Part shown: in pieces, positions 2,330 to 59,600 of the stretch
How positions within the stretch are numbered: the first letter of the stretch is position 1
Layout of the letters: each line of letters starts with the position of its first letter
Origin: Mobula hypostoma
Lineage: Eukaryota
Assembly: GCF_963921235.1 (NCBI RefSeq)
Contig: NC_086097.1
Span: forward strand, 21,764,001 to 21,828,000
Reading direction: 5' to 3'
Length of the DNA: 64,000 bases
Made by a program: the position numbers and the translations under genes
Notes under the pieces: model-generated
Database searches by the model: none
What the model saw: only the letters and a program-made list of their open reading frames with translations
Told to the model about the DNA's origin: nothing

Positions 2330-2773
2330 TCAATCCATGGCCTCATCTGCTGCTGCACTTTAACACTTTATATTCCATTTGGGTAGCCTCCAACCTGATG
2401 GCATGAACATCGATTTCTTAAACTTCCAGTGATGCCTGTCCCCCTACCCTTCACCATTTCCCATTCCCATTTCCCCCTCTATCTCCTTGCCTGCCCATCG
2501 CCTCCTTCTGGTGCTCTCCCCCCCATCTTCTCTTTCTTCCATGGTCTTCTAAACTGTCCTATCAGATTATCAGATCCCACCCCCCTTCTTCAGCTCTTTA
2601 TACCTTTCACCAATCAACTTCCCAGCTCTTTACTTCACCCCTCCTCCATTCATACTCTGACCTCTCCTCTGTCTTTCCCGTCCTGATGGAGGGTTCGGCC
2701 TGAAATATTAACTGTTTGCTCTTTCCCATGGATGCTGCCTGAGATGCTGAGTTTCTCCAGAATATTGTGTGTG
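2330..2773 (+). mobile_element. Penelope-like element 3' fragment (GIY-YIG C-terminus, pyrimidine-rich UTR, degenerate hammerhead-bearing terminus)
   Basis: Encodes IFHLGSLQPDGMNIDFLNFQ*, the PLE endonuclease C-terminal LxxLxPxGxN motif. Followed by cctgatggagggttcggcctgaaa and the gatgctgcctga...ccag..ttgtgtgtgtt terminus seen throughout the window. Confidence 0.75.
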
Positions 2774-3981
2774 TTCCCATCAATCTTAACCAGATTTCCA
2801 GTCCCTGCTACTGAAACACATCCCCACAGTATGATGCTGTCTCTACCATATTGTACAGAAGGGATGGTATGACGTGGCTGATGCACAGTATTAGTTTTAT
2901 GATACATAGACATAAGACACAGTGTTGAAGCCAAAATGTTCCACTTACCTTCTTCCACATCTTTACAGTATCTTCTTAGTTACGCTTTGCAAAGTCTTTA
3001 CAGGCAAGGATATGCTTTGTTTTTTAGCCACGTCTTCTTCCTTGCCACTCTTTCATAAATATCATTTTTTATGCAAGGCCTTAGACATTGTGGAGCCATG
3101 AACTTCATCTCCAGTTGCAGCTACTGACTTTTACACCTCACTCAGAGAGACTGTTGGCATCACAGTAGCCTCTCTTACAAGAGCTTTTCTTCTCTGGCAA
3201 CCATGTTTAGAGGGGCAGCTTGACCTAGGCAGTGTGACTGTGGTTTCTTATTTTTTCCACTTTTTCATGATGGACTGCACTAAGCTCCAAGCTATGTATG
3301 TTCAGTGCCTTTAAGATGGTCTTGTACTGCGCCCTTTCCCCTGATCTGTTCTTCTCTATTATCATTTCCCTGACTTGCCTTGAATGCTCTTTTGTCCTCA
3401 TTTTGAATTGGTCTGTTGAAAATCTATCATACTGTTGGACCTTACAGAGAGAGGGAGTATTTATTCAGGTGATCCTCCAATTTTCTGCATCAACCAATTG
3501 GGTGAGTTGGTAAGGTGATATATAGTATTTCACCTGAGGAAAGTTGGCATAGTAATTACAGAGGGGATGAATACTTCTTCAGCTCTCGATTTTGGTTTTT
3601 AATTTTTAGTAAATTATTGACAAATTTTGGAACTTTTCTTTTTGATTTGACAGGATGCACAATCTTTTACAGATTAGCTCAAAATAATACCGCAATATTT
3701 TTTAAATTTAGAAAATGAGACAGTAAAATGTGGAAAATGGTTGTGGGTGCTGAATTCATTTTCAAGGCACTGGAGGTACTATATGTTACCACATGCTAGC
3801 ATTTACAGGAAAAGATAAAGAAATGCAGTAGAATCTATGAAAAAACATACATGAATTAAGACTGACAAACAACCAATGTGCAAAATAAGTCAAACTGTAC
3901 AAATACAATACAAATATTACTGAAAAAATGGTTTGTAGAGTCCTTGATAGTGAGTCTGAGACCTGGGTGTCATTATACACC

Positions 3982-5958: not shown

Positions 5959-7050
5959 TATATACTGTACATGGACTGAAGCGAGGTGCAGAAGGCATAA
6001 CAGTATAAGAACCAGCACTGTCAGGCTAGGTAGTAGCATCTTCCCCCAGGTTGTTAGACCTCTTAACATCCTGCTGCCACCCAGCACACACATACTGAAT
6101 GCCCTGTTGCTCTCCCTCCACCACCCACTCCCCAACTCCCCAACTCCCCAACTCACAGACGCACTCTCATCCTGCACTTGTCACTTTTCATCTTTTATTG
6201 TTGCTGTTAAGCATATTTATACTACTGCCAAAACATCGACTGTACTTTTTTCCACAGGTGCTGCCTGGCCTGCCGAGTTCCTCCAGCATTTTGTGTGTGT
6301 TGCTCAGATTTCCAGCACCTGCAGATTCTCTCTTGTTTATACTACTGCTCGTTTTATTCTATATAATGATGGTTCATTGAGCTGTACGCATGTGCATGGT
6401 TGAATGACAATGAACTTGAACTTGAGATGATCAAGTGACAAAGTGACTCTTGGCAAGAGGAACTCTTCTCGGTGCAATGGGGCAGATGAAAACGCAGTAG
6501 GCCAGTGACTGTGTCAGCGTGTATCAGGTGTGGAGTGTATGTGTAGAGTGGCGGTGGATGGGGGTGCTGAATGGTTGTGGAGAGCAGTGGCTGTTGTAGT
6601 GGTGGTGGGTGAGTTAATGATTGGAGGTGTTGATCAGCCCGACGGCTTGGGGGCAGCAACTGATATTTATTGCTGCTCTGCATCAACACGCTCAAGATGC
6701 TGAGAATTGATTTCCATTGTGGCACTTAACAGCCACTTGTGTTATCATCTCCTCCAGGTGCTCCAGAACATTTAGTAGCTTCTGAAGTGAAGTAGCTTTT
6801 AATTAACACTTCACACAAAAACAACACCCAGACTTGTGCACAACAAGATCTCACATGGATAGTAGCTAAGTAACAGCATTACAGAAAGTAGAGGAACTTT
6901 TGGCCCTTCTTACCTGCTCCGCCAATCAATGAGATTCATTCAAAGGGGTGTGGGCTTTGCCTGTCGAGCCAGCATTTAACTGTCCATAGCAACACACACA
7001 AAATGCTGGTGGAGTTCAGCAGGACAGGTAGCATCAATGGAAAAGAGTAA

Positions 7051-11456: not shown

Positions 11457-11458
11457 TA

Positions 11459-21084: not shown

Positions 21085-22027
21085 TGAAGCTTGAAGTTGA
21101 AAGTACTGTAAGTCGTGCATTCGATGTATTCAGAGGAAGATGCTGTCTACGAGGGTTGCTCCCTTATCCCATTTACAGAGTGTGGGGCCACTTGATTTGG
21201 TGTGTATGAACTTCCTCTCCAAATAGCCTGATTCCAGCAACACTGCGAATGTCTTGGCTATTACTGATATGCCCAAGCCTTCCCTACAAAGGATCAGATG
21301 GCCAAAGTGTTATGGGAAAAGTATTTTGTTCCTTATGGCCTTCTAAGATGGATGCACAGCAATCAGGGAAGGGATTTTAAGAGTAGGCTCATACGTGAGG
21401 TACTGGGCATGCTTGGAGACAAGAAGTTGGGGACCACTCCTTATCGCATTCAGGGTAATCTCCAGCCTGACAGGTTCTATCGGACATTGCTAGACATGCT
21501 CAGAACCCTGAATATCAGTAAGAAGAACAAATGGAGTCAGCATATTGGGCATCTGGTCCACTGCAACAACTCTACACAGAATGAAGCTACTGGATACTCG
21601 CCTTACTATTTGATGTTCAGGCGCAAAGCCTGTAGATCTCTTGTTTTATGACTGGCAGGGAAGACTTGCCACAAAAGACCTATCTTTAGCGTCTGACATG
21701 AGGAAGGAACTGCAAAAGGCTTATGAACTAGCAGAGGTCTCTGCTACCAAGCAACATCAAGGAAACAAGAGGAGATATGATCAAAAGATTAGGTTCTCCC
21801 AGATGATGCCTGGAGACAGAGTACCTATGAGGAACTTGGAGCTACTAGGAAGCATCAGTTGGCTGACCACTGGGTGGCTATGCCTTACGAAGTGGAGAGG
21901 CAGACGCCAGTTGTGCCAGTTTTCCGGGTGAAGACAGAAGATGGGAATGAGTCTGTCAAAATTCTCCACTGGAATCACCTTTTACCTCTAAGGCAGGAGG
22001 TACATGTTGACCCAGAGTCTGACATGC
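21085..22027 (+). mobile_element. Inverted second Gypsy integrase segment
   Basis: ORFs 21298-21651 (HSNQGRDFKS...TTPY..QGN.Q.DRF.RTL) and 21641-22071 are homologous to the minus-strand integrase at about 18120-18900. Confidence 0.85.
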
Positions 22028-24201: not shown

Positions 24202-24665
24202 TAAAAGACTCCCACCACCTAGGACATGCCCTCTTCTCATTACTACCATCAGAGAGGAGGTACAGGAGCCTGAAGACGCAACCTCAACATTTTAGGAGCA
24301 GCTCTTCCCCTCTGCCACCAGATTTCTGAACGGTCTATGAACCCTTCAACACTACTATTTTACTCTCTTTTTATTAATTTATTTAAAAATATTTCCTATT
24401 ATAAATGATGGTAATTTTTTACGTATTGCTCTGTGCTGCTGCCACAACACAACAAATTTTACGCCTACGTCAGTGATAATAAACCTGATTCTGATTGTCA
24501 ACGGGGTTTAGAGGTGAAAAGTCACACTTTATGGAAAGCTTGTTACCTTATTCATCTGCATTTAAAAGATGGCAGGGTGGGGTGGAGGTGGGGAAGAGTC
24601 ATTGGTTAACCAAGGATTGTCAGCATGGCTTTGAGAGACCCTGTCTGACAAATTTGATAATTTGA

Positions 24666-24825
24666 TGCAACACACACACAAAATGCTTTGAGGAACTCAG
24701 CAGGTCAGACAGCATCTATGGAAATGAATAAACAGTTGACGTTTCAGGCCGAGACCCTTCATCAGGACTGAGAATGAAGGAGGGAAATGCCAGAATAAAA
24801 AGGTGGGGGAAGGGGAAAGAGGCTA
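24666..24825 (-). mobile_element. Penelope-derived short repeat (pLTR-like) carrying the hammerhead motif
   Basis: acacacaaaatgct..aggaactcagcaggtcag.cagcatctatgga...cttcatcaggactg. The same family occurs near 2680, 6235, 6990/7790, 9790, 10820, 24925, 25750, 29112, 31684, 36820, 38075, 39669, 47541, 53805, 55930, 58527, 60720 and 61310. Confidence 0.8.
24733..24770 (-). ncRNA. Minimal type I hammerhead ribozyme motif in a Penelope-derived repeat (best-preserved copy)
   Basis: Minus strand reads CAGTC CTGATGA A GGGT-CTCG-GCCT GAAA CG TC AACTG. It has the CUGAUGA/GAAA/UH core, a stem II hairpin, stem I CAGT/ACTG (core-proximal pair mutated) and a palindromic ACGU in place of stem III. Confidence 0.65.
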
Positions 24826-25696
24826 ATTTGATTAAACATTTGGAAGTGATGGCAGAAGTGTTATCAATGACAGTTGTTCTCCATAGTTGTTAGCTGGCCT
24901 ACTGAATGTTTTCAGCAAATCGTAAACACAGGATTCCTCAGATGCTGGAAATTCAGAGTGACACAAAATGCTGGAGGATCTCAGCAGGTCAGGCAGCATC
25001 TATGGAGAGGAATAGATAGTGGATGTTTCAGGCTGAGATCCTTCATCATAACTTACCTCTTCCTAGAGATGCTGCCTGGCTTGCTGCGTTCACCAGCAAC
25101 TTTGATGTGTGTTTCATGATAAAGGGTGTTGGCCCTTCAATGACAGGAAATTGAGCGCACAGCCACTAATGAACAGGATCAGAAATGCCTGCAATCTTAT
25201 GTTTCTACACTCATAGGTGTTTGCAGGATTTGAACCCATGGCCTTCTGAAATTGCATTCAAAATGTCCTGATGAAGGGTCTTGGTCAATGTACCCTCTAA
25301 CTTGTAATGACCAATGTGCACAAAAATCTTGTGCTATACAATTTTTTACCCAATGACAACAACAGGTACTCTCTGAATTTTTAAGTGGAAGTAAACCTGA
25401 AGTTGTTCTAAGCCATTCCGCTTCAAATGAACTAGAATTTTTTTTTGTGCTTCACGCCCTTTGCTTCTTTGGAATTCTTCATAGTGAATCAATAATTTCT
25501 TCAATAAAAACAGTGTAAATAAGTCGGTTCTAAAACCTGCAGACAAATCTTCGTGAACTCACATTGTCAACAACGTCTGCGTCAGAAACCGGAAAAGGAC
25601 ATATGATTGTGTATGATCGTGAAATATACCTAACACACCAACGATGTAGAGGGTGACATTTTGTGCACTAGTAGTAAAAGGTGGGGGGGGGGGTTG

Positions 25697-25983: not shown

Positions 25984-26133
25984 ATCTCTCAATATCTGGG
26001 GAAGCTCTACAGTGAGATGATCTTTGTAAATGGATTTGTGCATTGTGATCCACACCCAGGCAATGTGTTAGTGAGAAAGTCTCCTCAAACCAACAAGGCT
26101 GAAATTGTGTTGCTGGACCATGGCCTATATCAG
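25984..26133 (+). CDS. ADCK1: ADCK1 internal coding exon (150 nt, phase 0/0): ISQYLGKLYSEMIFVNGFVHCDPHPGNVLVRKSPQTNKAEIVLLDHGLYQ
   Basis: Acceptor ctctttattccag| and donor CAG|gtaagc. Contains the ABC1/UbiB kinase catalytic loop HCDPHPGN and the DFG-equivalent LLDHG. Closely matches the vertebrate ADCK1 segment as I recall it (LGKMYSEMIFVNGFVHCDPHPGNVLVRK...AEIVLLDHGLYQ). Confidence 0.95.
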
Positions 26134-28505: not shown

Positions 28506-30026
28506 GACACCTCTCTATTCTGAGGTTGTGCCCTCTGGTCCTAGGTTCCACCCCCACTACAGGAAACATCCTCACTATGTCCACTCTATCTAGGACCTTA
28601 AATATTCGACGGGTTTTGACAATTGTAACTAAACCTTGATAACTTGGAAAATTTTACAGAGGATTCAAAGGCATGGGGAGTGCAACAGAATTGTTTGCTC
28701 AGGATGATGTCCAAGTGAAGATCTTCGCAACAAGATCTTAGCAGCAACTTCCTTTCTCTGATGAAACATAAACGCTGTGTCTCTCTGCATGGATGCTGGC
28801 TGACCTGCTGAGCATTTTCAGCATCTCGGAAACACTGAGAACAGACAGAGGCCCTTCAGCTCACTGTTTCCATGCTGAGAATCAAGAATCTGCTTACACC
28901 AATCCTACACCAAGCTGATTTTACTCTCCCCATGTTTCAGGATCACATTAAAGTTTATAGCCATGTAAACATGTGGTATAAATGCCATGAAATTTCCCTT
29001 TGTACATCAGCAGTACAGCACATTACAAACATGACAAGTTGTGTATACTTAAATGACACAAAGCGTACACCTGTGCAAAGATAAACATAATGATGCAAGT
29101 GCAACGCGCAGACAAAATGGAGGAACTCATTAGGTCAGGCAGCATCTATGGAGGGGAATAAACTGTCGATGTTTCGGGCTGAGACTCTTCATCACGTTGA
29201 CTGCTTATTCTGCACCACAGGTGCTGTCTATTATGCTGGTTCCTTCAGCACGTTATGTGCATTGCTCAGTTTCCAGCACCTGAAGAATCACTTGTGCTTG
29301 TGATAATGATACGAGTGGATGTTGAGACACAGAAACAAAATACAGTATAGCCTGAGGTAGGGGGATGGGTTTTAGCCATTTTCGAACCTACAGCTACCCT
29401 TGATTCCCCAACTCACCTTCAAATTTGAGTTGCTTGGGGCTTCTTACTGTAGCAAAATTAACCTGCCTCCAATTTCTGTTTATAATTCAGATTTCCAGCA
29501 GCTACAGATCTTTAATTAAAACAGGAAATGCTAGGAATTCTCTGCAGGTCAGGTGGTACCTGTGGAGAGAGAAACAGTTCACGTTTCAGGTCAAAGATCT
29601 GGCAGCTCTTTAGGTTTTCATTGACTGCTGGGGCTGATGCTCATCCCACAGATATAAAAAGTACCATTTTAGTCCTGTGACAAGAGAAACACGGTAGATC
29701 CATCAACACTTGGTTGTTGGGCTTTCATCGTCTTTTCAGTTTCTGACAGGCCCACTGTGACGAGCTATTTATGGACATTGGAAAGACAGTAGGTTTGATG
29801 GATTCTGTTTTTGTAACTTCTATTTATTGTGTTCTAGGCTGTTTTAGACAGCAGTTATCTCTGCACAGGCCCATGCTCTGAGGTGCTAAAAAAATGGCCA
29901 GCTCACAACCCCACGACCGGTTTGCATATTTTGGTGCTTCCTCTTTACCAGGAATCTCTCCCATAAATCTCAGCTCAACCTGAAATCTGCTCACCTTTCA
30001 ATTACATCATCAAACATCAGTAGAAG

Positions 30027-31613: not shown

Positions 31614-34364
31614 TGCTATCGATTGTTTACCTACTTTATTCCATTGCACCGCTTTTGCGATTGGTGTGACAGAGGCTTGAAAGTCACACACACAAAATGC
31701 TGGAGGCACTTAGTAAGTCAGTCAGCATCTATAGACAGGACAAATGAGTCAACGTTTTGGGCTGAGACCCTTCGTTAGGACTAATGGTGTACTGTACGCC
31801 AGGTTTGCATGATTTTCAATTTGCTGCACAGATCTTCTTTAAACTTGAAGTGCATGCCCTCTATCTAGTATTGGGACCGAATGATAGTGTAGTGATTAGC
31901 GTAATGCTATTACAATGCTAGTGACCTGGGTTCATTTCTGCTGCTGCCTCTAAGGACTTTGTACATTCTCTGCATGCCCACATGGGTTTCCTCTAGGTGC
32001 TCCAGATTTCCCTCACATTCAGAAGGCGAATGGGTTAGTGAGTTCATTGCTCACTCGGGTTCAATTGGATGGCATAGGCTCATAGGGCTGGAATGACCAG
32101 TTACAGTGCTGTATCTTTAGAAAAATACAAATTAATTATTAGACATTTTGGGGGCTGGGGAAACATATCAGCTATTCATCTGTGCGCCTCACAATTTTAT
32201 AAACCTTCCTTACAATGAACATTAGTTGAGGCCATTCAGAGCGCTAAGTCAACGCTGGCTCTCAGACCAATCCCATCAGACCCATTACAGCACCAGCGAT
32301 CCGCGCTTAATTCCACCGCTCAAAGGCATGTATGTTCTCTCTGTGATCATGTGCTCTGGTTTCTTCCCACATTCCAAGGACATACGGGTTTATTGTTCAC
32401 ATGGGTGTAATTGGGTGGCATTGTTTTGTTGGCCTGTGTCTTCAGATTAAGAAATAATCCCCCCACTTATTTGCAGGCAACTTGTTCTGTCTCACCTTCC
32501 CATTATTGCCCCACTGCTTCCCACGTCAACCACCAATACTTGGGGTAATCTAGCAAATTTACCTTCCAGCTAGCACATAGGAGGAAATTGGAGCACTTGG
32601 GGTAGTTCCACGCAGTCACAGGAAGAACATGCAAACTCTGCACAAACTGCACTGGAACCTTCTCTCTCCTACATAAATTATAGGGAAATATATGGAAAGG
32701 TTGGATCGGTGAGGACTATTTCCTGAAGCGTAGGAGAATGGGGGGAGTTTTGATAGTGATATACAAAGTTATGAGATATAGATAAAGGAAATGCAAGCAG
32801 GTTTTCAGCACTGAAGTTGGATGAGCCTAGAACTAGAGGCCATAGGTTAAGGTTCAAAGGTGAAATATTTAAGGGAAGCCTGAAGGAAAACATACTGTGA
32901 GTGTGGAATGAGCTGCCAGTAGAAGTGGTGGATAGGGGTTCAGTTGCAGCATTTAAGAGAACTTTGTACATGGATGGGTGGGGTATGGAGAGTTTTGGTT
33001 GAGGTGCAGGTCAATGGGACAAGGTGGAATAATGGTGTGGTATGGACTAGATGGGCCGAGGGGCCTGATCTGTACTGTAGTGCTCTATGGTCCCATGATT
33101 TGCCTTGAGGGCAAAGACTGAAATACATACCAGCACAAATGCAACAGGCTGCAGGGAGCAAGGTGATGCAGCCAATAAATCTGCTGTCTTGTATCTCCGG
33201 GATTCACCTTCGATCCTGTTCTTTCTAAGATGCTACTTTGGCATCAGCTAGGAAGTAGCCTGTATCACAGAGAGACAAAATACACTGTCCAACAGAGCCC
33301 AGGGAATCATTGCCCTCAGAAGTGTGAAGGGAAGATTAGCTCCTTTTGTCACATACATCAAAACATCGAAACCGACAGTGAAATACGTCACTTTGTGTCA
33401 ATAACCAACACAGTCCAAGGATATGCTGGGGCAGCTTCCAAGTGTTGCCATGCTTTTGGTGTCAAGACAGCATGCCTACAATTTACTATCTCTAACCCAT
33501 GCAGCTCTGGGACCAGAGGGCACAGCCTCAAAACAGAGAGACATACATTTAGAACAAAGATGAGGAGGAATTTATTTAGCCTGAGGGTGGTAGGGAGACT
33601 ATGGAATTCTTGCAACAGGTGGCTGTGGAGTCCAGATCACTAGGTGCATTTAAGGTAGAGGTTAATAGGTTCTATATTAGTCAGGGCGCAAAAGTTTATG
33701 AAGAGAAGGCAGGGTTGAGAGGGAAATGGATTAGCCATGATGAAATGGCAGAGCAGACTTGATGGGCTGAATGGCCTGATTCAGCTTCTATGTCTTATGG
33801 TCTTATGAGAACATACAAACGCCTTACAGACAGTAGTAGGAATTGAACTTTGATCTCACAGCTGGCACAGTAAAGCATTACGCTAACCTTCACTATACCT
33901 TGCTGCCTCGTGTGTAAAACCTAGTCTATTTTCCTATTTCTCCGTGGAAAGTGGAGTTTCCTCTTTCTCCCTGTAATCACATGAGTTTCCCCCAAGTGCT
34001 CCAGTTACTTCCTACATCTCAGCAATGTGCGGGTCTGCAGCTGAATTGATCATGTGAATTGCCAATAGTGGTTTTGCTGATGGGAAATGTAATGTGAGTA
34101 AAATGGGTATTTAATGGGCCTGGTGACCTAATGGAACACACACAAAGCTGGAAGAACTTAGCAAGTGTGGAGAGAAATGATCAGTTGATGTTTTTTTCCC
34201 CCCATGAGCCTTCATCTGTACTGCTGATGTGGAGGGCCCATTTCTATGCTGTATGAGTCTGCTATATCTATGTCTATGTTGTAGGGGATTGATTTTTTAC
34301 AATGCTAAAGCCATTGGAGGAACAGTGGGCTGTGGCCTCTTTCTAGAGGTAAGCCACAGATCAT

Positions 34365-35397: not shown

Positions 35398-38300
35398 CTT
35401 ATGGTCTTATGGCCGAATAACTTTGAACCACAAGCACTGGCCAATGAAACCAACATATTTATACATAGCTCTTTCATGCCTGCTACCAAACATGAAACAG
35501 AGAGGACCATGGCGTAGTGGTTATCGGAATGTTACTTCAGTGCAAACAGGCCAGGATCAATTCCTGCCACTGTCTACAAGGAATTTGTATGTTCTTCTTA
35601 TGACTGCATGGGTTTCCTCTGGGTGCTCCAGTTTCCTCCCATGTTCCAAAGACGTACAGGTTAGTAGATCAATTGGTCACATGGGTGTAATTGGGAGGCT
35701 GAGACTCATCGTGCCAGAAAGGCGTGTTACCCTGCTGTATCTCAAAATAAAAGTTAAACAAGCACACTGTACAGTAAATGTGAGAGAAGAAATGATTATT
35801 GAACCAGACTCTCTGCCCCCTCCCCAAAAAAAACTGTTCTGAAAAGCCAATTACCTTGGGACAACTTTATTTTAGCAGAAAAGGTTGCTGTGGTTCCTCA
35901 GTGTTCCGGACATTGTACACGTCTGAGTGGGAGTGCAGTTTATGAAATGTTTCCCTCAATAGCTCTTCAGCATCTCAGCTCACCTCCTCTGGCCGATGGA
36001 ATTGTTTACCGCTCAGCTGTCACTGCACATTGACTCAGCCACTGTGTTACAGTACGGTTGAGTGACATATGACACCGTGTGTTAAATTGACCTCCCTGCT
36101 TGTGAACATAGCCTGATCCGAGCTTCTATTTTCATTGCTTTTAACTTCACTGGCTTTCCTGACAATAAAAAGCATGGATTCGTTTTAAGGTGCTTGTTAT
36201 CTGTCTTGTGTTAAAGGCATCATCTCCAGTCTCCACAGAGGGATCTGAAAGCCTTAGGATTTTCAGGAATTCCCCAACAAATACCTGCTGTCTTCCTGAC
36301 TTTTGGAATGACGAGGTTTATTTGAATGGACCTTGATGCCTGCCTGAATCTGACACCTGCCATGCATTCCCTGAGGTTATTTGATGGGATCAGGGAATTA
36401 TTGTCAAATTTTCTCTGTGAACCTGGCTCCATCTGGAACATGAAGGGGTGAGTAAATATTTCAGGGAGAGGCTAATGATTCCACCCAGAGTTGTAGAATC
36501 TAAAGACCACAGTAGGAAGCTATCATAAACATAAGAGAGGTAATTTCCCACTCCCATTCCCTCTTCTTCTATTCTCCACTCTGGGCTCCTCTCTTCTCCT
36601 CATCTGCCTATCACGCCCCCTGGTGCCCCTTCTCCCATGGTCCACTCTCCTCTCCTGTCAGATTCCTTCTCCAACCCTTTGCCTTTTCTACCTATCATCT
36701 CTCTGCCTCTTACCTCCTCCCCCACTCACCTGGCTATACCTATCGCCTTCTAGCTTGTACTTCCTCCCCTCTCCCACCACCTTCTAATTCTGCCTTCTGC
36801 CCCCTTCCTTTCTAGTTCTTTTCCATAGAAGCTGCCTGACCTGCTGAGTTCCTCCAGCATTTTGTGTGAGATTCTGTATATGCTAGGAATCTATGCTTTT
36901 ATCACTAGTCTCTTACATCCCAGGTACTTCCTTGCATTTCCTCCTCTTGTACAGCCTCCAACGCCCAAGTGCAGTTCCGAGAAATGTGCACAGCATTCCT
37001 GCTGAGTCACAGCCAGTGATTCATAAAGGTTTAATGGGAGTTCATGCTTTTTTATTCAGTGTGCTTACTTACAGACCTTTTTTTTAATATATGTGGTTTT
37101 ACTTACTTGTACTGTCAAGGATTTGCGAATGTGCACCCAGGTCACTCAGCACACTGTGGAGAGATAGTGCAAATTAATGTTACTTTGATAAAGTTCAAAG
37201 TTCAAAGTATATTTATTATCAAAGTATGTATACTTTATGCAACCTTGAGGTCCATCTCCTTACAGGCAGCCGCAAAACTAAGAAACCCAATGGAACCCAT
37301 TGAAAAAAGATGACAGTCAAACACTCAATGGGCAGAGGTTAAAAAGCCATGCGGACAATAACAGCAAACAAATAGCATTCAGAGCTGAGGTTCACAAAAG
37401 TGAGTCACAGACATGAAGCCAGGCCTGTCTGCAGCTCGTTCAGGAGCCCATAGTTGTAGGCCGCAGCCTCAGATAACGGAGCAGCAAACTGATCCAGCCA
37501 TTCTCTCGCCTCGAGCCCTGACACACCCTAACCTTTTCAATCTGGCTCAGTGCTGAAAACATCCAAACCTTGCATTGTTCCTTGCTCTTGGACCCATTGA
37601 TTTGTACCGTCTCTCTACATTGTACCTCCACTAGGGGCAGCACGGTGGTTAGCATCAGTTATCGGACAATCGAGGTTCAATTCCTGCTGCTGTTTGTACG
37701 TTCTCCTTGTTGGTTTCCTCCTGGCACTCTGGTTTCCTCCCACATTCCAATAGAGGGTCAGAGTCAGTGAGTTGTGGGCATGCTACGTCGACTCTGAAAA
37801 CGTGCCTGCCCCCAGCACATCTCAAACAGTGCCTCAAGTTTCACTGAATATTTCGATGTATATGTGACAAAATTAATCTTTTAACATTTTCTAAGGTGCA
37901 CCACTTCATTATGAACTCCCTCAAGCAGAATTTTCCTTGTGTTTGCCACGTTCTCCTGTATATTAGCTGCCTCTATATTGCCTCCCTGGCTCAGTTTGGT
38001 ATCATTAGCAAACTTTGTTTGGGTTATTTCCAAATCTAGGCTGTCTAGCCTTCACAAGAGAAAAACATAAACGTAAAAGATGCTGCAGAGGCTGGAAATC
38101 CAGAGTTACGTCCACAAAATGCTGGAGGAACTCAGCAGGTCAGGAAGCATTTATGGAGAGGAATGAACAGTCAAGCCTTTGGTCCAAGACCCTTCATCAG
38201 GATGTGAAAGGAAGAGGAAAGGAGTGAGAATAAACAGGTGGTGAGGGGAGGAAGAGGAAGGAGTACAAGCTGGCAGGGCCGAGGTGAAGTTAGGTAAGGG

Positions 38301-39222
38301 GGCAAGTGGGTAGGCTGAGGAACCTTCACAAGTGAAACATTGATTCAAAACTGATCCTTGAGGGGACCCCATTCAGAAAGGAATCTACCTCTCTCTCTCG
38401 ATACAATATTCCACCTGAGTTTCAAACTTTAAAGTAAATCTATTATCAAAGTACATATATGTCACCATATACAGCCCTGAGGTTTATTTTCTTGTGGGCA
38501 TACTCAATAAATCCATAATAGGATAATAACCATAATAGAATCAATGAAAGACTGCACCAACTTAGGTGATCAACCAATGTGCAAGAGACAACAAACTGTG
38601 CACAGACAAAATGGAGCAAAATGATAATAAATAAACAATAAATATCGAGAACATTAAATGAAGAGTCCATCAAAGAGAGTCTATAGCTTGTGGGGATACT
38701 TCAATGATGGGGCAAGAGAAGTTGAGTGAAGTTATCCCCTTCAAGAACCTGATGGTAGTAACTGCTCCTGAACATGGTGGTGTGGGTCCTGAGGCTCCTG
38801 TACCTGCTTCCTGATGAAAGCAGTGAGAAGAGAGCATGACCTGGGTGGTGAGGTTACCTGAAATGTGTGCTGCTTTCCCGTGACAACGCTCCGTGTAGAT
38901 GTGCTCAATCGTGAAGAGGGCAGTTTGTGGTGCTGAGAGATGCTGTTTGCTGATACTCTTGAGAACTGTGCTAAAGGTGCTATATAATTACACGTCATTG
39001 TTTTCTGCTGACAGACTGACTGGGCGTCCCTGTGTTTATTTCAGGTTCATTCTTCTATTTGTTCCTCCTTGTGTTCTCGGGGGATGTTCGATAGCTGGTT
39101 TTCATCAACAAATCCAGCAGGTGTGAACCCAAAGATCTGAAACTCAACACTTGAAATATTGTGTAAATTGACAAGTGGGTCATCCTTACCTACTCCATTT
39201 ACTTATCCTCCATCCTACTAGG

Positions 39223-39940
39223 TAGAACATAGAACATAGCACAGTACAGGCCCATTGACTCCAATATTGTGCTGACCTTTTAACCTACTCTAAGATCACT
39301 CTAACCCTTCTCTCACACTTAGTCCTCCATTTTCAATCATCTGTGTGCCTACCTAAGAGTTTCTTAAATGTCCCTAATGTATCTGCCTGGCAGTGCGTTC
39401 CACAAACTCACCACTTTCTGTCTAAAAAAGCATGCCACTGACATCATCCCTCTATTTTCCTCAAATCACCTTAAAATTATCTCCTTAATATTAGCCATTT
39501 CCACCCGGGAAAAAAGCCTCTGGTTAGGCTCATGGTCTATGCCTTTTACAACCTGTACATCTCTATCAATTCACTTCTCATCCTCCCTTGCTCCAAAGAG
39601 AAAAATCCTAGCTTGCTTAACCTATTTTCACAAGCCGTGTTCTCTAATCTAAGCAGTATCCTGGTAAACACAAGGAAACCTGCAGATGCTGGAAATTCAA
39701 GCAACACACGACGAAGGGTCTTGGCCCGAAATGTCGACTGTACCTCTTCCTATAGATGTTGCCTGGCCTGCTGCGTTCACCAGCATTTTTTTTTTGTGTG
39801 TGTTGCTTGAGTATCCTGGTAAATATCTTCTGCATTCTCTCTAAGAGAGTCTACATCCTTTCTTTAATGAGGTGACCAGAACTGAACATAATACTCTAAG
39901 TGTAGTCGAAGCAGGGCTTTATAGATCTATAACATTACCC
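39223..39940 (-). mobile_element. CR1 fragment, minus strand, interrupted by a Penelope-derived insert at 39669-39809
   Basis: tagaacatagaacatag tail and reverse-complement CR1 body; 14-bp TSD agtatcctggtaaa (39655-39668 and 39810-39823). Confidence 0.8.
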
Positions 39941-47210: not shown

Positions 47211-50200
47211 ATGCATTTAAAGAAGCGGCAGATGCAATACAGTGTCGGGAGGTGCTTGGTCATGCACTTTGGTAGAAGCAGTAAAAGTATAGACTACTTT
47301 CTAGATGGAGGGAAAATTCAAAAATTCGAGGTGCAAAGGGACTTGGGAGTCCTCGTGCAGGACTCTTTAAAGGTTAATTTGCAGGTTGAGTCAGAGGTGC
47401 GGAAGGCAAATGCGATATTAGCATACATTTTGATAGAACTAGAATATAAAAGCAAGGGTGTTATGTTGAGGCTTCATAAAGTACTGTTGAGGCCACACTT
47501 GGAGTATTGTGAGCAGTTTTAGGACCCTTATCTATGAAAGATGCTGAAGATGGGTCTTGGCCTGAAACATCAACTTTTACTCATTTTTGTAGATACTGCC
47601 TGACCTGCTGGGTTCCTCCTGCATTTTGTGTGTGTTGCTAAGAAAGGATGTGCTGAAAATGGAGAGGGCTCAAATGAAGTTCATGAAAATGATTCCAAGA
47701 TTGAAAGGCTTGTCATATGAGAAGCGTTTGATGGCTCTGGGCCTGTACTCAATGAAATTCAGAAAAACAGGGGGTCACCTCAGAGAAACCTATCGAATGT
47801 AGAAGGGCCTCGATACAGTGGATGTGGAGAGGATGTTTCCTATGGTGAGGGAGTCCAAGACCAGAGGACACAGCCTCAGTATAGAGGGTCGTCCTTTTAG
47901 ACTGGAGATGAGGGGTAATTTCTTTAGCCAGAGAGTGGCGAATCTGTGGAATTTGTTGTCACAGGCGACTGTAGAGGCCAAGTCATTTAAGGCGGAGGTT
48001 GATACATTCTTGAGTAATCAGGGCATTGGGAAATGAACCTGGTAAGGTGTCAGATCTCTCAGTGGGAGAGCATTTTGGAGATAGTGATCATAATTCTATC
48101 TCCTTTACAATAGCATTGCAGAGAGATAGGAACAGACAAGTTAGAAAAGCATTTAATTGGAGTAAGGGGAATTATGAGGCTATCAGGCAGGAAATTGGAA
48201 GCTTATATTGGAAACAGACGTTCTCAGGGAAAAGTACAGAAGAAATGTGGCGAACGTTCAGGGGATATTTGTGTGGAGTTCTGCATCGGTACATTCCAAT
48301 GAGACAGGGAAGTTATGGTAGGGTACAGGAACCGTGGTGTACAAAGGCTGTAATAAATCTAGTCAAGAAGAAAAGAAAAGCTTACAAAAGGTTCAGAGAG
48401 CGAGGTAATGTTAGAGATCTAGAAGATTATAAGGCTAATAGGAAGAAGCTTAAGAGGGAAATTAGGAGAGCCAGAAGGGGCCATGAGAAGGCCTTGGCAG
48501 ACAGGATTAAGGAAAACCCCAAGGCATTCTACAAGTATGTGGAGCAAGAGGATAAGACGTGAAAGAATAGGATGTATCAAGTGTAACAGTGGGAAAGTAT
48601 GTATGGAACTGGAAGAAATAGCAGAGGTACTTAATGAATACTTTACTTCAGTATTCACTATGGAAAAGGATCTTGGTGATTGTAGTGATGACTTGCAGCA
48701 GACTGAAAAGTTTGAGCATGTAGATATTAAGAAAGAGGATGTGCTGGAGCTTTTGGAAAGTATCAAGTTGGATAAGTCATTGGGACCGTGTGAGATGTAC
48801 CTCAGGCTACTGTGGGAGGTGAGGGAGGAGATTGCTGAGCCTCTGGTGATGATCTTTGCGTCATCAATGAGGACGGGAGAGGTTCCGGAGGATTGGAGGG
48901 TTGTGGATGTTGTTCCTTTATTAAGAAAGTGTGTAGAGATAGCCCAAGAAATTATAGACCAGTGAGTTTTACCTCAGTGGTTGGTAAGTTGATGGAGAAG
49001 ATCCTGAGAGGCAGGATTTATGAACATTTGGAGAGGTATAATATGATTAGGAATAGTCAACATGGCTTTGTCAAGGGCAGGTCAGCCTTACGAGCCTGAT
49101 TGAATTTTTTGAGGATGTGACTAAACACATTGATAAAGGAAGAGCAGTAGATGTAGCGTATATGGATTTCAGCAAGGCATTTGATAAGGTACCCCATGCT
49201 AGGCTTATTGAGAAAGTAAAGAGGCATGGGATCCAAGGGGACATTGCTTTGTGGATCCAGAACTGGCTTGCCCACAGAAGGCAAAGGTGGTTGTAGACAG
49301 GTCATATTCTGCATGGAGGTCGGTGACCAGTGGAGTGCCTCAGGGATCTGTTCTGGGACCCTTACTCTTCGTGATTTTTATAAATGACCTGGATGAGGAA
49401 GTGGAAGGATGGTTTAATAAGTTTGCTGATGACACAAATGTTGGAGGTGTTGTGAATAGTGTAGAGAGCTGTCAGAGATTACAGTGGGACATTGATAGGA
49501 TGCAAAACTGGGCTGAGCAGTGGCAGATGGAGTTCAACCCAGATAAGTGTGAGGTGGTTCATTTTAGTAGGTCAAATATGATGGCAGAATACTGTGATTA
49601 AGAAGGCATACGGTGTATTGGCCTTCATTAATCGTGGAATTGAATTTAGGAGCCGAGAGGTAATGTTGCAGCTATATAGGACCCTGGTCAGATCCCACTT
49701 GGAGTACTATGCTCAGTTCTGGTCGCCTCAATACAGGAAGGATGTGGAAGCCATAGAAAGGGTGCAGATGACATTTACAAGGATATTGGCTGGATTGGGG
49801 AGCATGCCTTATGAGAATAGGTTGAGTGAACTCGGCCTTTTCTCCTTGGAGCAACAGAGGATGAGAGGTGACCTGATAGAGGTGTATAAGATGATGAGAG
49901 GCATTGATCGTGTGGATAGTCAGAGGCTTTTTCCCCCCCGGGATGAAATGATTGCCAAAAGAGGACACAGGTTTAAGGTGCTGGGGAGTAGATACAGAGG
50001 AGATGTCAGGGGTAAGTTTTTTCACTCAGAGAGTGGTGAGTGCGTGGATTGGGCTGCCGGCAACGGTGGTGGAGGTGGATACGATAGGGTCTTTTAAGAG
50101 ACTTTTGGATAGGTACATGGAGCTTAGAAAATTAGAGGGCTATAGGTAAGCCTAGTAATTTCTAAGGTAGGGATGTGTTCGGCACAACTTTGTGGGCCGA

Positions 50201-50357: not shown

Positions 50358-50691
50358 GTATGTATGTACGTATGCATTCATTTTGCACAGAAAATGAACC
50401 TCAGGGTTGTATATAGTGATATTGTCATCATCATCATTATTATGTGCATGTCGTATGATGTGGGTGATCATGGTCTTTCCAAGACCATGATTGTTCTTGG
50501 CAATAGGCTGACATATACGTACTTTGGTAATAAATTTACGTTGAACTTTGAAATGGGAGTTTTCTGGCGTAAGTTTTATATCTAGATTTGAAGTATAAAG
50601 CAAAATCAATTTTTTGGATTTTTTTTTAGATGGATTGATGTTCAGTTGCAATTGTTATCTGGACTTCCTTTTAATTCTTGGTTTTGTTCAG

Positions 50692-50889
50692 ACCCTGACA
50701 GACGAGTTCCGTCTGGATTATTGCCGTCTGTGGCGCTCTCTAATCAAAACCGACATGAAGGGCATTGAGACGTACAGCCGACGGCTGGGAGCTGGCGATT
50801 TGTATCCACTCTTTGCCTGCATGATAACAGCCAGATCCTGGGCATCCATAAGCAAAGGAATTGACCAAGTACCAGTCAGCGAAAACGAG
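50692..50889 (+). CDS. ADCK1: ADCK1 next coding exon (198 nt, phase 0/0): TLTDEFRLDYCRLWRSLIKTDMKGIETYSRRLGAGDLYPLFACMITARSWASISKGIDQVPVSENE
   Basis: Acceptor ttcttggttttgttcag| and donor GAG|gtgagc. In frame with the previous exon and continues the recalled ADCK1 sequence (LTEEFRLNYC..W..LI..DM...LGAGDLYPLFACMLTARSW). Confidence 0.95.
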
Positions 50890-53800: not shown

Positions 53801-56671
53801 AACAAGAAACACACAAAATGCTTGAGGAACTCAGCAAGGTTAGGCATCTTCTATAGGGGAAATGAACACTTGATATTTTGGGCCGAGACCCTTCACCACG
53901 ACTGGAAAGGAAGGAGGCAAAAGCCAAAATACAAAGCTTCTTACTTCATCTCCCTTCCCACCTTCCGGCTGGTATTCCTTCCTTTCCCCCACCTTTTCGT
54001 TCTGGCTTCTGCCCCCCCTTACTTGCCAGTGCTTGCGCAATGTCTGTACATCATTCCTGCCAGTGTACTATCTTAATCCTTTCTTTGTTGCACCTTCTAA
54101 AGATACAGTAGGTATCCTGTGTCTGATCGTGGCATCGTTGACAGGAGTTCAGTGTGTGATGGAATACTTCCCACTGGCCTGGATGAATGCACTTCCACCA
54201 ACACAGGGCAACACATCCGACTTGACTGGTATTCCACCCGCCACCATTCCCTACACACCAGAGAACTGTGGATACCATCTACAACATGCACTGCAGTTAC
54301 TTGCTTGGGCTTGTTTTACCCTGATAGCATCTAACAGACCTATGACCTCTGGCACCACAACACACAGGGGCCAGCAGGCAAATGGGAGCATTAACATGTT
54401 CCTCTGCAGGTCATATACCATAAAAATCATATACACTTCTGAACAACCATTGATAGCTTCACTCACCTCAACAATGAATTGACTCCATAATATATCAAAT
54501 TACTTTCAAGGACTCTACAACTCATGTTCTCAGTTTTTATCTATCTACCTATTTATCTGTTCATTTATCAATTTTTGAGATTCAAAAATTCAAAGCACAT
54601 TTATTATCAAAGAATATATAAAATTATACAACTTGAGATTTGTCTGCTTGCAGGCAGCCACAAAATCAAGGGACCCAAATAACACAATTTAAAAAAAAGA
54701 CCAAAAACCACTGCTCAGAGAAAGAGAGAAAAAAAAACACAAATCATGCAACATGCACACCAATAGCACTCTGAACCAGACTCCCCAGGACCGCTCCCAG
54801 AGCAGCTGCAGTCGGCCCAATCCTCAGCCCCAACTCATCACACCAGCGGAGCAAAAACGCACAACAGCCACAGCAGTTCACAGAACCACAGAGAAGGAAT
54901 GAACATTCGTGGGAGAGTGGGTGAAATCAGCCCAACCCTATTTATTTATCTGTCCTATTATTTATCTACAGTATTTATTGATTAATTGAGCGATTGATTG
55001 TATTTGCACAGTTTGTCCTCTTTCACACATTGATTACTTATCAGTCTTTGTGTGGAGCTTTTCATTGATTCTATTGTATTTTATTGTATTGTCATACTGT
55101 GAATGCCTGCAAGAAAATGAATCTCAGGGTAGTATATGGTGACATCCATATACTTTGATAATAAATTTACTTTGAACTTTGATGCTGACTGGGAAGTACA
55201 TCACCATTCCTTCATTATCACTGGGTCTCGTCCTGGATCTCCCTCCCCAGTAGAATAATGTGCCTCCCTTCAACAGAGGACTGCAGTGATCTAAGCAAGC
55301 GACTCGCCACCGTCTCCTGAAGGGCATTTGGGAATGCTGCAACCCTCCCAAAAATGAATCAGTCAAATCTCTCTTCCAAGAGCATTGCCCCATGGATCTT
55401 GATGGAATTTTGCTGTGGCAAACTTGAGGTTATTAAATGATGAGAGCATGTGTATCTCTTGGTCTGCAGTGTCTCTTTCTGATTGATAAGCATTGCTTGA
55501 GAAACATTGTGTCCTGAAACGTTGGGAACACAACCTCCTTTAGGGACCTTTTCTGCAAGAATGGGTCTTCTCAATAAATCAGTATGCAATGTGCCTGTCC
55601 CAGACAGACAGGCACACTGCGACTGGATGAGAGTTTTAGCTCTTCATTGACTTTCTGACCACTTCAGGAGTCTGCAGCGAGCATTGTGGTGACTGGCTCG
55701 TTCTCTTCCTCATAAATTGATTTTGCTTTGGACAGAGTTATCTGCAGCAAAGCAGCGCATTGTGAGTTCATTAAAACATCAATAGCAATAAAAGAAGTAA
55801 CCCTTTCTTGGCAGAGAGAGAAAGGTAGACTGCAAAGAGTGCTGAAGTCAGAAGCTGAGCATCTATAGACCTAGGGATAAGAGAGGTAGAGCCAGTACAG
55901 ATAGAGCTGTTAAATAAAAGCACACTACCACAAATGCAGGAAATCTGAAAATTAACCAGAAAAGTGATGGAAATAACTTGCAGTTCAGGCAGCATCTGTG
56001 GAGACAGAGGCAGATAAAAACTGTCAAGCCAATAACATGTCAGGACAATAACAACTATGGAAAGTTAAGCAATTTTTATTTTGCAGGGAAAGGAGGAAGG
56101 AGAGAGGCCAAAAAGGAAGGTCAGTGACCCAGGGTTCCAAGTTCCAAGTAAATTTATTATTAAAGTACATATGCAAATATCGCCATGTACAACCCTGAGA
56201 TTCGGTGCAAGGTGAGAGAGACTGAATGGCAAAAGGCACATAGGTACAAGGTCAGTGAGTCATAGAAAAGTACAGCACAGAAACTTGCCCTTCAAGCCAT
56301 CTAGTCCATGCCAAACCATTTAAATTGCCTACTCCCATCAACCTGCACCAGGGACCACAGCCCTCCATAACCCTACCATCCAGAATAGCAATCAACAGAA
56401 GAGAATCAGGCAGAAGATAGAAATGCCTGAGAATACCTACCCCCCAGTCTCAAGGGTCCATGAACCCATGAAAAATACCTCATTATTCCTTTTTTTGTTT
56501 GTGTAATTTACAATAATATTATGTTTTTACACTGTACTTGATCAGCAAGGTGATCAGATAGGTGAGTGATAATAAATCTGATTTGGACTCTGTGATTCTG
56601 AAGAACAACTTCTACCCTGCACCTTTTATGTCCTAAAGATGAACACTTTGTCTCTTCGTCTATCTCTTAGC

Positions 56672-59600
56672 CCATCAGACATCGGAGCAGAATTAGGCCA
56701 TTTGTTCATGCTCAATTTATTTTTACTCTCAACCCCATTCTCCTGCTTTCTCCACAAAAACTTTGACGTCCTTAATAATTAAATACATATCAACCTCCTC
56801 TTTAAATATACCCAATGACTTGGCCTCCGCAACTGTCTGTGACAATGAATTCCACAGATTCACCACCCTCTGACTGAGGAAAATTCCCTCTCATCTCTGT
56901 TCTAAAGGAACATCCTTCTATTCTGAGGCTGTGACCTCTCCCATTATTAGAAACATCATCTCCATGTCCACTCTATCTAGGCCTTTCAATATTTGGTAGG
57001 TTTCAATGAGATCGCCCCAGCATTCTTCTAAACTCTCACAAGTACAGGCCCAGAACCATCAAATGCTCCCCATACATTAATCCTTTCAATGTCCTCTGGA
57101 CCCCTTCCAATGCCAGCACATCCTTTCTGAGATAAGGGCCTAAAGTGGCTCACAATGTTCCATGCGGTCTGACCAATGCCTTCTAAAGCCACGTTGTGAC
57201 CCTTGAAGCTGCCTGCACTGCACTTTCTCTGTAACTGCAACTCTATACTCTGGCATCCTGTTTTTCCATTTTATACTTCTGCAATGTACTTAGATATGGA
57301 ATAATCCATATGAATGGCAGACTAACAAATGCTTTTCACTGTAACTTGGTACATAGGACAATAATAGACCAGTTATAAAAGGATGGAGGCTGCGACATGA
57401 TATTCAGTGTGCTGTTGTCTCGTTCACTGAGATCATGATGGGTCTTTTACCTCAGTGTCACTTTGTTGGACTGGCTCCATGTTCCTTGACATCTAAAAAT
57501 CTGTACATCATAAGACATAGGAACAGAATTAAGCCACTCGGCCCATCAAGTCTGCTCCACCAGTCCATCATAGCTGATTTATTATTTCAACCCCGTTCTC
57601 CTGCTTTCTCCCCATAACCTCTAACCCCTTACTAATCAAGAAGCTATCTATAATATACTGCTTTAATATACCCAATCATTTGGCTTCCGCAGTTGTCTGT
57701 GGCAATGAATTCCTCAGATTCGCCAACCTCTGGCTAAGGAAATTTCTCCTCACTTCTGTTTTAAAGGGATGTCCTTCTAGTCTGAGGCCTCTGGTTCTAG
57801 ACCCCCCCACTTTAGAAAACATCCTCTCCATTCGATCTAGGCCTTTCAGTATTCAATAGGTTTCAATGAGATCCCCACTCGTTTTTCTAAACTCCAGCAA
57901 GTGCAGGCCCAGAGCCATCAAGTGGTCCTCATATGTTAACCCTTTAATTCCCAGAATAATTTTCATGAACCTCCTCTGCACCCTATAATGTGATGTAAAA
58001 GAACAAATAGGCTAGTTTAAGGAAAGTGTAATTGAGAATCCCTATCCAGGTTCTGTAGTATTTAAAGGTAACCTTTTGAAGGGTATTGGGTATATGCCAG
58101 AGAGGGGAAAGTTGCTGGGTTATGAGAAGTAAAGGGCAATAGGACTAAGATTTCAGAGAACCAGCAGCAGGGTAATGGGCTAAGTGGCCTTTTTCTATGC
58201 TGCATTATTCTGTGATTCTACAAGGTCAGTGCAACCCTGATCCTCTTTATTGGGATTGATTAGCTAGTAAAAAATAGGCGCAAAAAAATCAGAGAAAGGA
58301 CTGCTGTTTTCTTTTGTGTTTTATTAGTCCTTTTAAAAACTGGCTGCACATAATGATGAAGCAACGATTGAGTCATTTCCCCTGTCTGTCATCTCTGGCA
58401 ACCACACTGCTATAAGTGGCTAAGATTGATTTTATGGACATAATTTCTGTGTAACTAACTTCCACACGTGCCTTCAAGTTTCAGTGATTACGATGGTCAC
58501 TGAAACATAAAGACAAATAACTGTTGACACAGGAGATTCTGCAGATGCTGGAAATGAACAACACACACAGAATGCTGGAGGAAATTAGGAGGTCAGGGAG
58601 CATCTGTGGTGAGAAATCGACGATGTTTCGGGCCGAAACTACTCAGGGTATTGGCTCGAAACATCAACAGTTTATTTCCCTCCATAGATGCTGTCTGATC
58701 TTTTGAGTTTCTGCAGCATTTTGTGTGTGTGTAGACAAAAGATTGTTTATGAGACCAACCATTAAATTGCAAATTACAGCTCATCACGTTATACGAAGAA
58801 CATTAGAACATTACAGCACAGTAAAGGCCTTTCGGCCCATGATTTTGTACCAACATTTTACCCTGCTCTATGATGAATCTAATCCTTCCCTCTCACATAG
58901 CCCTCCATTCTTCTATCATCCTAGAGATTTTTTTTAAATGTTCCTAATGCCTCCACAGCACTCCTGGCAAGGCATTCCACACACCTACTATTCTCTTTAA
59001 AAAAAAATCTCCTCAGACATCGCCTCTATACGTACCCCCCCATCACCTTACAATTCTGCCGCATCGTATTAACCAATCTTGGCCTCTTATCACCTTGTAC
59101 GCCTATATCAGTTCACCCCTTGTACTCTTTTGCTCCAAGGACCAAACCCCTAGCTCACTCAAACTAACCTCATAAGATAGGCCTCTCCACCACAGCAGCT
59201 CATAAGTCAGATGCACGGCTGCGAACCAAGTTGCCATAGAACAGAACTCGCGGCCTGGCAACGCTCGACAAATCCATGGCATCAGTCTCCCAGACACTCG
59301 TTTGTGTATATGGGCTGTATATAAGACCAAGTAGCCGTAAGACAAAGAAGCAGAATTAGGCCCGATGGCCCACTGAGTCTGCTCCGCCATTCATCATGGC
59401 AGATTTATTTTCTTTCTCAGCCTCCTACTTTCTCCACATAACACTTGACGCCCTTACAAATTTTACTAAGCAAGAACCTATCAAGCTCTGCTTTAAATAT
59501 ACCCAGTGACTTGGCCTCCATTGCCATCTGTGGCAAGGAATTCCACAGATTCACCACCCTCCAGCTAAAGAAATTCCTTCTCCTCTGTTCTAAAAGTATT

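What the first reader, a model, noticed from the sequence alone, without database searches (positions are those of the whole stretch)
24733..24770. High-copy Penelope-derived repeat carries a minimal, probably dimer-dependent hammerhead ribozyme
Seen: about 20 copies of a 100-200 bp repeat. Combining the copies at 24733(-), 29163(-), 31745(-), 39708(+), 10822(+) and 47543(+) gives the consensus CAGTC-CTGATGA-A-GGGTCTCGGCCC-GAAA-CGTC-GACTG. This reads as 5-bp stem I, CUGAUGA core, one extra A, 4-bp stem II with a CUCG loop, GAAA, and a loop-less palindromic ACGU before the GUC cleavage triplet. Many deviations from consensus are CpG-type transitions. Known: Penelope-like elements carry minimal type I hammerheads with palindromic stem III that are thought to cleave as dimers. 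Inference: this is an elasmobranch PLE/retrozyme-like family amplified to SINE-like density (about one copy per 3 kb here), so introns are littered with potential self-cleaving motifs.
Basis: partly seen in the sequence, partly recalled or inferred. Interest (0 to 1): 0.7.

Follow-up and report, generated by a model that had tools for sequence, protein, structure and literature searches.

The report
Decayed Penelope retrotransposon ribozymes in ray
This is a real but already-known type of minimal self-cutting RNA motif, left as mostly broken end-pieces of a Penelope-like jumping gene scattered through the introns of a ray gene.

Summary
The repeat is real: 26 profile hits at 23 loci in 64 kb, none in the reversed window. 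PLE origin is now evidenced. One copy runs upstream into a GIY-YIG C-terminal remnant in Neptune register. The family also shows 5' truncation, head-to-head inverted partners and an optional 35-45 nt tail. The host is a ray and the window lies in ADCK1. The copies are decaying: the core is no better conserved than flanking sequence (p=0.34). Only the cited copy keeps core, palindrome and stem I, it has a mismatch beside the cut site, and it is antisense to ADCK1. It is not a tandem retrozyme, and intron cleavage is unlikely here. Cleavage and dimer dependence were not tested. Two unexplained leads: 5' ends pile up inside the hammerhead, and inverted arms come from different subfamilies, hinting at two RNA templates per insertion. 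Verdict: new member of a known kind.

The parts
24733..24770 (-). Minimal type I hammerhead (stem I 4/5 bp, CUGAUGA, extra A, 4-bp stem II with G-U closing pair, GAAA, palindromic ACGU, predicted cut after C17 at 24738); best-preserved copy, antisense to ADCK1
24667..24823 (-). Whole 157-bp insertion carrying the cited motif: pyrimidine-rich pLTR stub, hammerhead, short 3' end
24658..24666 (-). Candidate 9-bp target-site duplication, downstream copy (score 9, just under the cut-off of 10 that no random pair reached)
24824..24832 (-). Candidate 9-bp target-site duplication, upstream copy
2333..2775 (+). Longest copy: ORF 3' end, pyrimidine-rich pLTR, decayed hammerhead (2678-2714; A9>G), short 3' end
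2364..2432 (+). 22-codon remnant plus stop, matching the C-terminus of a Neptune/Naiad-type GIY-YIG endonuclease; broken on its 5' side
36516..36871 (+). Long pLTR copy with the hammerhead deleted internally
38060..38316 (-). pLTR copy with G12>A and A15.1>G, long tail, 17-bp TSD with 2 mismatches
24918..25115 (.). Head-to-head pair: minus arm with long tail, plus arm of another subfamily with short end; junction in stem I
29100..29308 (.). Head-to-head pair: minus arm starts at motif position 7-8, plus arm at 29 with long tail; weak 8-bp TSD candidate
39655..39823 (.). Head-to-head pair: inverted long tail joined to a plus copy starting at motif position 8; 14-bp exact TSD
58522..58733 (.). 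Head-to-head pair joined inside the motif; arms of different subfamilies; weak 7-bp TSD candidate
47544..47639 (+). Only sense-strand copy with all core positions, but no stem I 5' strand and non-palindromic ACAU; inserted in another repeat
6227..6345 (+). Truncated copy with long tail and 11-bp exact TSD
31684..31780 (-). Copy starting at the hammerhead 5' edge; G5>A and G12>A
53806..54010 (-). Copy with three core changes and an inverted upstream pLTR segment
61309..61391 (+). Copy starting at the hammerhead 5' edge; A9>G and U16.1>C
25984..26133 (+). ADCK1 exon (host gene; AG/GT boundaries)
50668..50889 (+). Next ADCK1 exon (tblastn span; the 5' edge includes some intron overhang)

Best explanation
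The repeat is the 3' end (pLTR plus tail) of an endonuclease-bearing Penelope-like retrotransposon, probably Neptune clade, in a myliobatiform ray. SHOWN: the master sequence carried a minimal type I hammerhead on the ORF strand, about 250 nt after the stop codon, and the genomic copies are short 5'-truncated insertions decaying by CpG loss. INFERRED from published PLE work: reverse transcription starts at one of two sites downstream of the hammerhead (short end or +35-45 nt tail) on uncleaved RNA and usually stops early, often inside the hammerhead. In the active element the motif would cleave after GUC only weakly, by pairing its ACGU palindrome with a second copy and probably with help from the element's protein. 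The intronic copies here are fossils with little or no effect on ADCK1 pre-mRNA.
For: Consensus fits the published min-HHR consensus. Continuous homology runs from the hammerhead up to a peptide remnant whose spacing matches Neptune EN C-termini; that motif occurs once in six frames, 0 of 100 shuffles. Loose ends in 4 of 4 public runs (1233, 117, 157, 93 contigs) supply an open in-frame stretch that places the conserved Glu in register. Published PLE signatures are present: 5' truncation, 4 inverted 5' partners, long tail in 7 of 26 segments, TSDs at 3 of 22 loci vs 0 of 150 random pairs. Neutral decay: core 14/142 vs downstream 108/830 non-CpG changes, Fisher p=0.34. Copies span the cut site, as expected if unprocessed RNA is the template. 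Strands are 13:13.
Against: No RT or full ORF is in the window. Two protein database searches and Pfam did not link the remnant to any PLE protein; the link rests on a by-eye register match to a published alignment and a motif I derived from it. Nearest-neighbour energies disfavour the double hammerhead (-19.9 vs -33.7 kcal/mol best cofold; two monomers -25.4). No compensatory base-pair changes could be shown. The neutrality test is small, and the sense/antisense split of near-complete copies (3:7) leaves room for weak purging.
Confidence: 0.85

Rival explanations
1. Many copies derive from a short non-autonomous master (hammerhead plus tail, 100-140 nt) mobilised by the PLE protein, a SINE-like derivative, not from random truncation of full PLE RNA. 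Compatible with PLE origin.
For: 9 of 24 by-eye 5' ends lie at motif positions 1-8 (p about 2e-4) and 19 of 24 inside the motif.
Against: Ends are spread over positions 1-39 and five copies extend 35-345 nt upstream; no shared upstream head or tRNA gene.
Confidence: 0.2
2. A non-LTR retrozyme family replicating through circular RNA from tandem arrays.
For: Retrozymes are reported as PLE pLTR derivatives and were found in the one chondrichthyan sampled in a 2026 preprint.
Against: No head-to-tail array of the unit in the window; the two same-strand copies 284 nt apart are separate insertions and the partner has C3, 16.2 and 1.1 changes; the motif is minimal, not canonical; copies span the cut site and do not start after it.
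Confidence: 0.07
3. The intronic copies are live self-cleaving elements that affect host pre-mRNA.
For: One copy is nearly intact; near-complete copies are 3 sense to 7 antisense, which could reflect purging but is not a significant skew at this n.
Against: The near-intact copy is antisense to ADCK1; the only sense copy with a full core lacks stem I; min-HHR monomers showed no cleavage in vitro in the defining paper; no excess core conservation.
Confidence: 0.05
4. A LINE or SINE 3' tail stem-loop that resembles a hammerhead by chance.
For: Rfam gives no hammerhead hit; fold z-score of the cited copy is only -1.04.
Against: All conserved core letters, the extra A, G10.1-C11.1, the palindrome and stem I are in the consensus; upstream homology leads to a GIY-YIG-type C-terminus.
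Confidence: 0.03

Closest known systems
Minimal hammerhead (min-HHR) of metazoan PLE pLTRs (Cervera & de la Peña 2014, PMC4209133)
   Same: CUGANGA, extra nucleotide between 9 and 10.1, G10.1-C11.1, GAAA, palindromic 15.2-16.2 with no helix III, NUH, short helix I; mostly solitary motifs near truncated PLEs; opposite-strand neighbours also reported.
   Different: Helix II is 4 bp, short against the 5-8 bp of most listed examples; no cartilaginous fish among the rows I saw of Fig. S3 (part 2 of 3 of the supplement; a term search of that file found no shark or skate).
Neptune-clade EN+ Penelope-like elements (Craig et al. 2021, PMC8557442)
   Same: C-terminal GIY-YIG ending with E-x3-I-x2-L-x4-P-x-G-[LM]-N spacing, then pLTR with hammerhead; 5' truncation, inverted 5' copy, tail at one end.
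   Different: RT, linker Zn-finger and full ORF not seen; microsatellite targeting not evident in the TSDs found; clade call rests on about 17 residues.
PAc / Poseidon of Anolis (Frangieh et al. 2024, PMC11167929)
   Same: Two 3' ends downstream of the hammerhead; copies made from RNA not cut by the ribozyme.
   Different: Other clade; PAc ORF starts in the hammerhead, which could not be determined here.
Non-LTR retrozymes (PMC7229834; bioRxiv 10.64898/2026.07.22.740005)
   Same: PLE pLTR-related, type I hammerhead, high copy number.
   Different: Those are tandem arrays, mostly with canonical hammerheads, that yield circles; here dispersed truncated or inverted copies.

Membership tests
min-HHR (PLE type I) | CUGANGA and GAAA core with NUH triplet | tested here: met
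   Consensus; intact in 2 of 26 segments
min-HHR (PLE type I) | Extra nucleotide between 9 and 10.1; G10.1-C11.1 pair | tested here: met
   Consensus vs paper; cited copy has G-U
min-HHR (PLE type I) | No helix III; palindromic 15.2-16.2 | tested here: met
   CG in the CpG-corrected consensus; states CG 5, CA 8, TA 3, TG 1, GC 1, so the CG rests on CpG correction
min-HHR (PLE type I) | Helix I closing the motif | tested here: met
   5 bp in consensus, 4 of 5 in the cited copy
min-HHR (PLE type I) | Compensatory covariation in helices | tested here: inconclusive
   One family, few copies; pattern scans of viral and metagenome contigs gave 0 loci
min-HHR (PLE type I) | Self-cleavage as dimer or with protein | not testable with these tools
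   Only nearest-neighbour energies, which disfavour the dimer fold
EN+ PLE (Neptune) | C-terminal GIY-YIG endonuclease directly upstream of the pLTR | tested here: met
   C-terminal remnant only: register match to published alignment, motif 1 hit vs 0 of 100 shuffles, in-frame Glu from loose ends in 4 of 4 runs; database searches silent
EN+ PLE (Neptune) | Telomerase-like RT and linker Zn-finger in the same ORF | not testable with these tools
   No full copy in the window, no genome held
EN+ PLE (Neptune) | Hammerhead in pLTR on the ORF strand | tested here: met
   Copy 2333-2775
EN+ PLE (Neptune) | 5' truncation, inverted 5' copy, 30-40 nt tail at one end | tested here: met
   4 pairs, tail on one arm in 4 of 4
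EN+ PLE (Neptune) | Partial tandem pLTR-ORF-pLTR | not testable with these tools
   No full-length element in the window
Non-LTR retrozyme | Head-to-tail tandem units each with a complete hammerhead | tested here: not met
   Window only: no such array
Non-LTR retrozyme | Circular RNA | not testable with these tools
   Only contigs of guessed RNA runs available
Rfam hammerhead families | Covariance-model match | tested here: not met
   No hammerhead family among 14 matches at E<=10

The most novel reading that the evidence does not exclude
Each two-armed insertion is made from two different PLE RNAs at once. A dimeric PLE protein primes both strands of the cut target, one at the short start site and one at the tail site, each on its own RNA, and the two cDNAs meet head-to-head inside the self-complementary hammerhead. 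The same complex would hold two ACGU palindromes together, so the minimal hammerhead would act as an in-trans dimer sensor inside the RNP and as the cDNA joining site. Support: tail on exactly one arm in 4 of 4 pairs; arms are not nearest neighbours in 3 of 3 testable pairs; 3 of 4 pairs join inside the motif on both arms; one pair has a clear TSD around the whole unit, two have weak ones. Successive insertions or later gene conversion are not excluded.
Probability: 0.25. Interest if true: 0.65.

Novelty: new member of a known kind. Interest (0 to 1): 0.3.

Why it matters
The motif class and its link to PLEs are published, so the core finding extends them to a batoid genome at high density. 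My ten paper searches found no description of this family, but repeat libraries, subscription journals and the 2026 preprint's supplements were not seen. The useful part is statistical: a family this dense, with distinguishable subfamilies, would allow a direct genome-wide test of how PLE inverted ends form (one template or two) and whether minimal hammerheads are purged from sense-strand introns, both open points in PLE biology.

Tried and rejected
Whole genome not held. Rfam: no hammerhead hit. Degenerate motif scans: 0 loci in viral contigs and metagenome contigs. Protein searches with the ORF remnant: no candidate; one hit that is a repetitive spurious protein, rejected; Pfam 0 families; exact strings absent from the Craig supplement. 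The protein-language-model atlas was not searched for the remnant, so that route is open. Earlier scan findings: none. Cleaved-RNA template model rejected: no 5' end placed exactly after C17, nearest at 29, 35 and 39. Single-cDNA fold-back for inverted arms is disfavoured because arms belong to different subfamilies; distances for subfamily-B rows are inflated by a one-column misalignment, but nearest-neighbour identities rest on shared diagnostic letters. TA at 15.2-16.2 (3 copies) is not claimed as covariation; two-step CpG decay could give it. RNA runs carrying the family are guessed RNA, contigs only, and say nothing on cleavage or strand; part of the laid contigs belong to another repeat at 2250-2316, and summed depth is no copy number. 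HE1 SINE / HER1 LINE (names recalled) could not be compared: the search gave no usable sequence.

Full report
Observation. An iterated nhmmer profile of the repeat's 3' part gave 26 hits, 13 per strand, weakest E 1.4e-7; three are inverted partners of neighbours, leaving 23 loci, one per 2.8 kb. The reversed window gave none. A longer profile added an inverted tail at 39663-39708 and a 22-nt fragment at 25265 (E 0.028). I aligned 26 segments to the cited copy (this set drops the weak 24870 hit and adds the 25265 fragment). A plain majority has A at 31 and 34, so the palindrome and the first stem I pair depend on that correction. Contigs from four public runs laid on the diverged copy at 2250-2850 show the consensus letter at positions 2 (281/390 depth in X1), 12 (201/318), 30 (2015/4407), 33 (1879/4454) and 34 (2526/4631); position 31 was not among the 40 rows shown of 78, and depth over the 5' half was low.

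Host. The exon at 25984-26133 is ADCK1 (Pfam ABC1); its closest named hits are myliobatiform rays at 96-98%. A second exon lies near 50668-50889, and no other exon of three of the four reference proteins maps in the window; one isoform also hits 54651-54899. By inference the window is ADCK1 intron on the plus strand, and the cited copy is antisense to the pre-mRNA.

The motif. Cervera & de la Peña 2014 (PMC4209133; I read parts 1-3 of 4, searched one of two supplement files, and read its part 2 of 3) define exactly this anatomy: CUGANGA, one extra nucleotide, G10.1-C11.1, GAAA, palindromic 15.2-16.2 with no helix III. They report thousands of mostly solitary motifs in coelacanth and Xenopus, no cleavage for a Schistosoma monomer and low cleavage for dimers. 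The consensus here meets each feature; helix II is short (4 bp). Rfam has no matching model hit. ViennaRNA prefers an inactive rod for the monomer (-12.7 vs -10.5 kcal/mol for the hammerhead-shaped fold) and does not favour the double hammerhead (-19.9 vs -33.7 best cofold; cited copy -8.1 vs -27.3). This ignores core tertiary contacts, so it neither proves nor excludes activity, but it counts against spontaneous cleavage.

PLE origin. The copy at 2333-2775 continues upstream through a pyrimidine-rich region shared with 36516-36871 and 38060-38316 into a 22-codon frame ending in a stop at 2430-2432. Its spacing matches the C-terminus of Neptune and Naiad GIY-YIG domains in Fig. S2 of Craig et al. 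2021 (PMC8557442; passages, supplement parts 54-55 of 59), and not the shorter Penelope/Poseidon ending; this comparison was by eye. A motif derived from that alignment hits once in six frames, here, and in 0 of 100 shuffles. The window copy is broken just upstream, but loose ends at 2362 in all four runs (1233, 117, 157 and 93 contigs) give a stop-free stretch in the same frame that places a Glu four residues before the conserved Ile, as in Neptune. Since the domain ends the ORF, Neptune fits better than Naiad (N-terminal EN). Against: database searches did not recover a PLE protein, and no RT was seen. The insertion signatures listed by Craig et al. are present: 5' truncation; four head-to-head inverted partners; a 35-45 nt tail scoring above the 99th percentile of 500 random windows in 7 of 26 segments, two of which supplied the query; TSDs scoring 10 or more at 3 of 22 loci vs 0 of 150 random pairs, plus a 9-bp exact candidate around the cited copy.

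State of the copies. Ten segments span the motif (an eleventh alignment, 56034, is dubious). Only 24760- and 47549+ keep all 12 scored core positions, and only 24760- keeps stem I and the palindrome. Non-CpG change is 14/142 in the core and 108/830 downstream, p=0.34 (21 of 26 rows; the reference row and four rows with flank-driven alignments were dropped). 51 of 104 motif substitutions are CpG transitions (22 rows). Near-complete copies split 3 sense to 7 antisense, too few to show purging. No head-to-tail array of the unit exists, so the retrozyme definition in the 2026 preprint (10.64898/2026.07.22.740005; parts 1-3 of 5; supplements not seen, and they may list this family or its clade) and in PMC7229834 (passages) is not met in this window.

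Mechanism. Frangieh et al. 2024 (PMC11167929; parts 1-2 of 4) show for an anole PLE that reverse transcription starts at two internal sites that explain the tail, that both target strands are cut and extended, that the protein is predicted to be a dimer, that the hammerhead needs the protein to cleave, and that uncleaved RNA is the main template. The window agrees: two 3' end classes and copies that span the cut site. I infer the same cycle here. The hammerhead was functional or at least maintained in the master element; the intronic copies are passive.

Unexplained. 19 of 24 5' ends, placed by eye, fall within motif positions 1-39 and 9 within 1-8 (approximate p 6e-4 and 2e-4; four segments ending downstream or ambiguous were left out). 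The stem I 5' strand follows a polypyrimidine tract and CAG, like a splice acceptor; in D. virilis Penelope an intron end maps to helix I. In 4 of 4 pairs only one arm has the long tail (one short arm scored 24 against a cut of 25), and in 3 of 3 testable pairs the arms are not nearest neighbours: 25058+ is closest to 39713+, 58645+ to 10820+. That suggests two template RNAs per event, the novel case, but n is small and only one pair has a strong TSD around both arms.

Verdict. Observation confirmed; interpretation partly supported. New member of a known kind. Ten paper searches (listings only unless cited above; PMC6155905 passages) found no description of this family in rays, but repeat databases were not available. 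Interest 0.3.

Noticed in passing
window 25984-26133 and 50668-50889 (+): Two ADCK1 exons separated by a 24.5-kb intron; closest named proteins are from myliobatiform rays.
   Followed up: yes
window 54651-54899 (+): Matches the C-terminus of one annotated ray ADCK1 isoform at 77% but not the other three references; possibly a repeat-derived alternative last exon.
   Followed up: no
window 24771-24800 (-) and equivalent in other copies: Polypyrimidine tract plus CAG overlaps the stem I 5' strand, like a 3' splice acceptor; several copies begin at or just before this AG.
   Followed up: partly
window 36516-36871 (+) and 60712-60820 (-): Internal deletions remove all or the 3' half of the hammerhead, possibly RT slippage across the hairpin.
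   Followed up: partly
window 24667-25290: Cluster of five or six family pieces within 620 bp on both strands, including a weak plus copy at 24870-24923 and a 22-nt fragment at 25265.
   Followed up: partly
window 18123-21651: Degraded LTR-retrotransposon-like pol pieces (RT_RNaseH_2 at 19469-20152) with an internal inverted duplication (18549-18888 / 21104-21418).
   Followed up: no
window 48014-50097, 3960-4586, 479-916: Degraded LINE reverse-transcriptase fragments (RVT_1 at 49212-49598 and weakly 482-916); CR1-like by my recall only.
   Followed up: no
window 45569-45635, 11454-11525, 46356-46407: A short palindromic repeat family scoring weakly against miRNA models; probably a MITE-like element.
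   Followed up: no
window 30027-31613 and 63662-64000: 36-bp minisatellite (44 copies) and 26-bp minisatellite (13 copies).
   Followed up: no
window 12314-12613 / 12903-13202: A local direct duplication at 92% identity, 589 bp apart.
   Followed up: no
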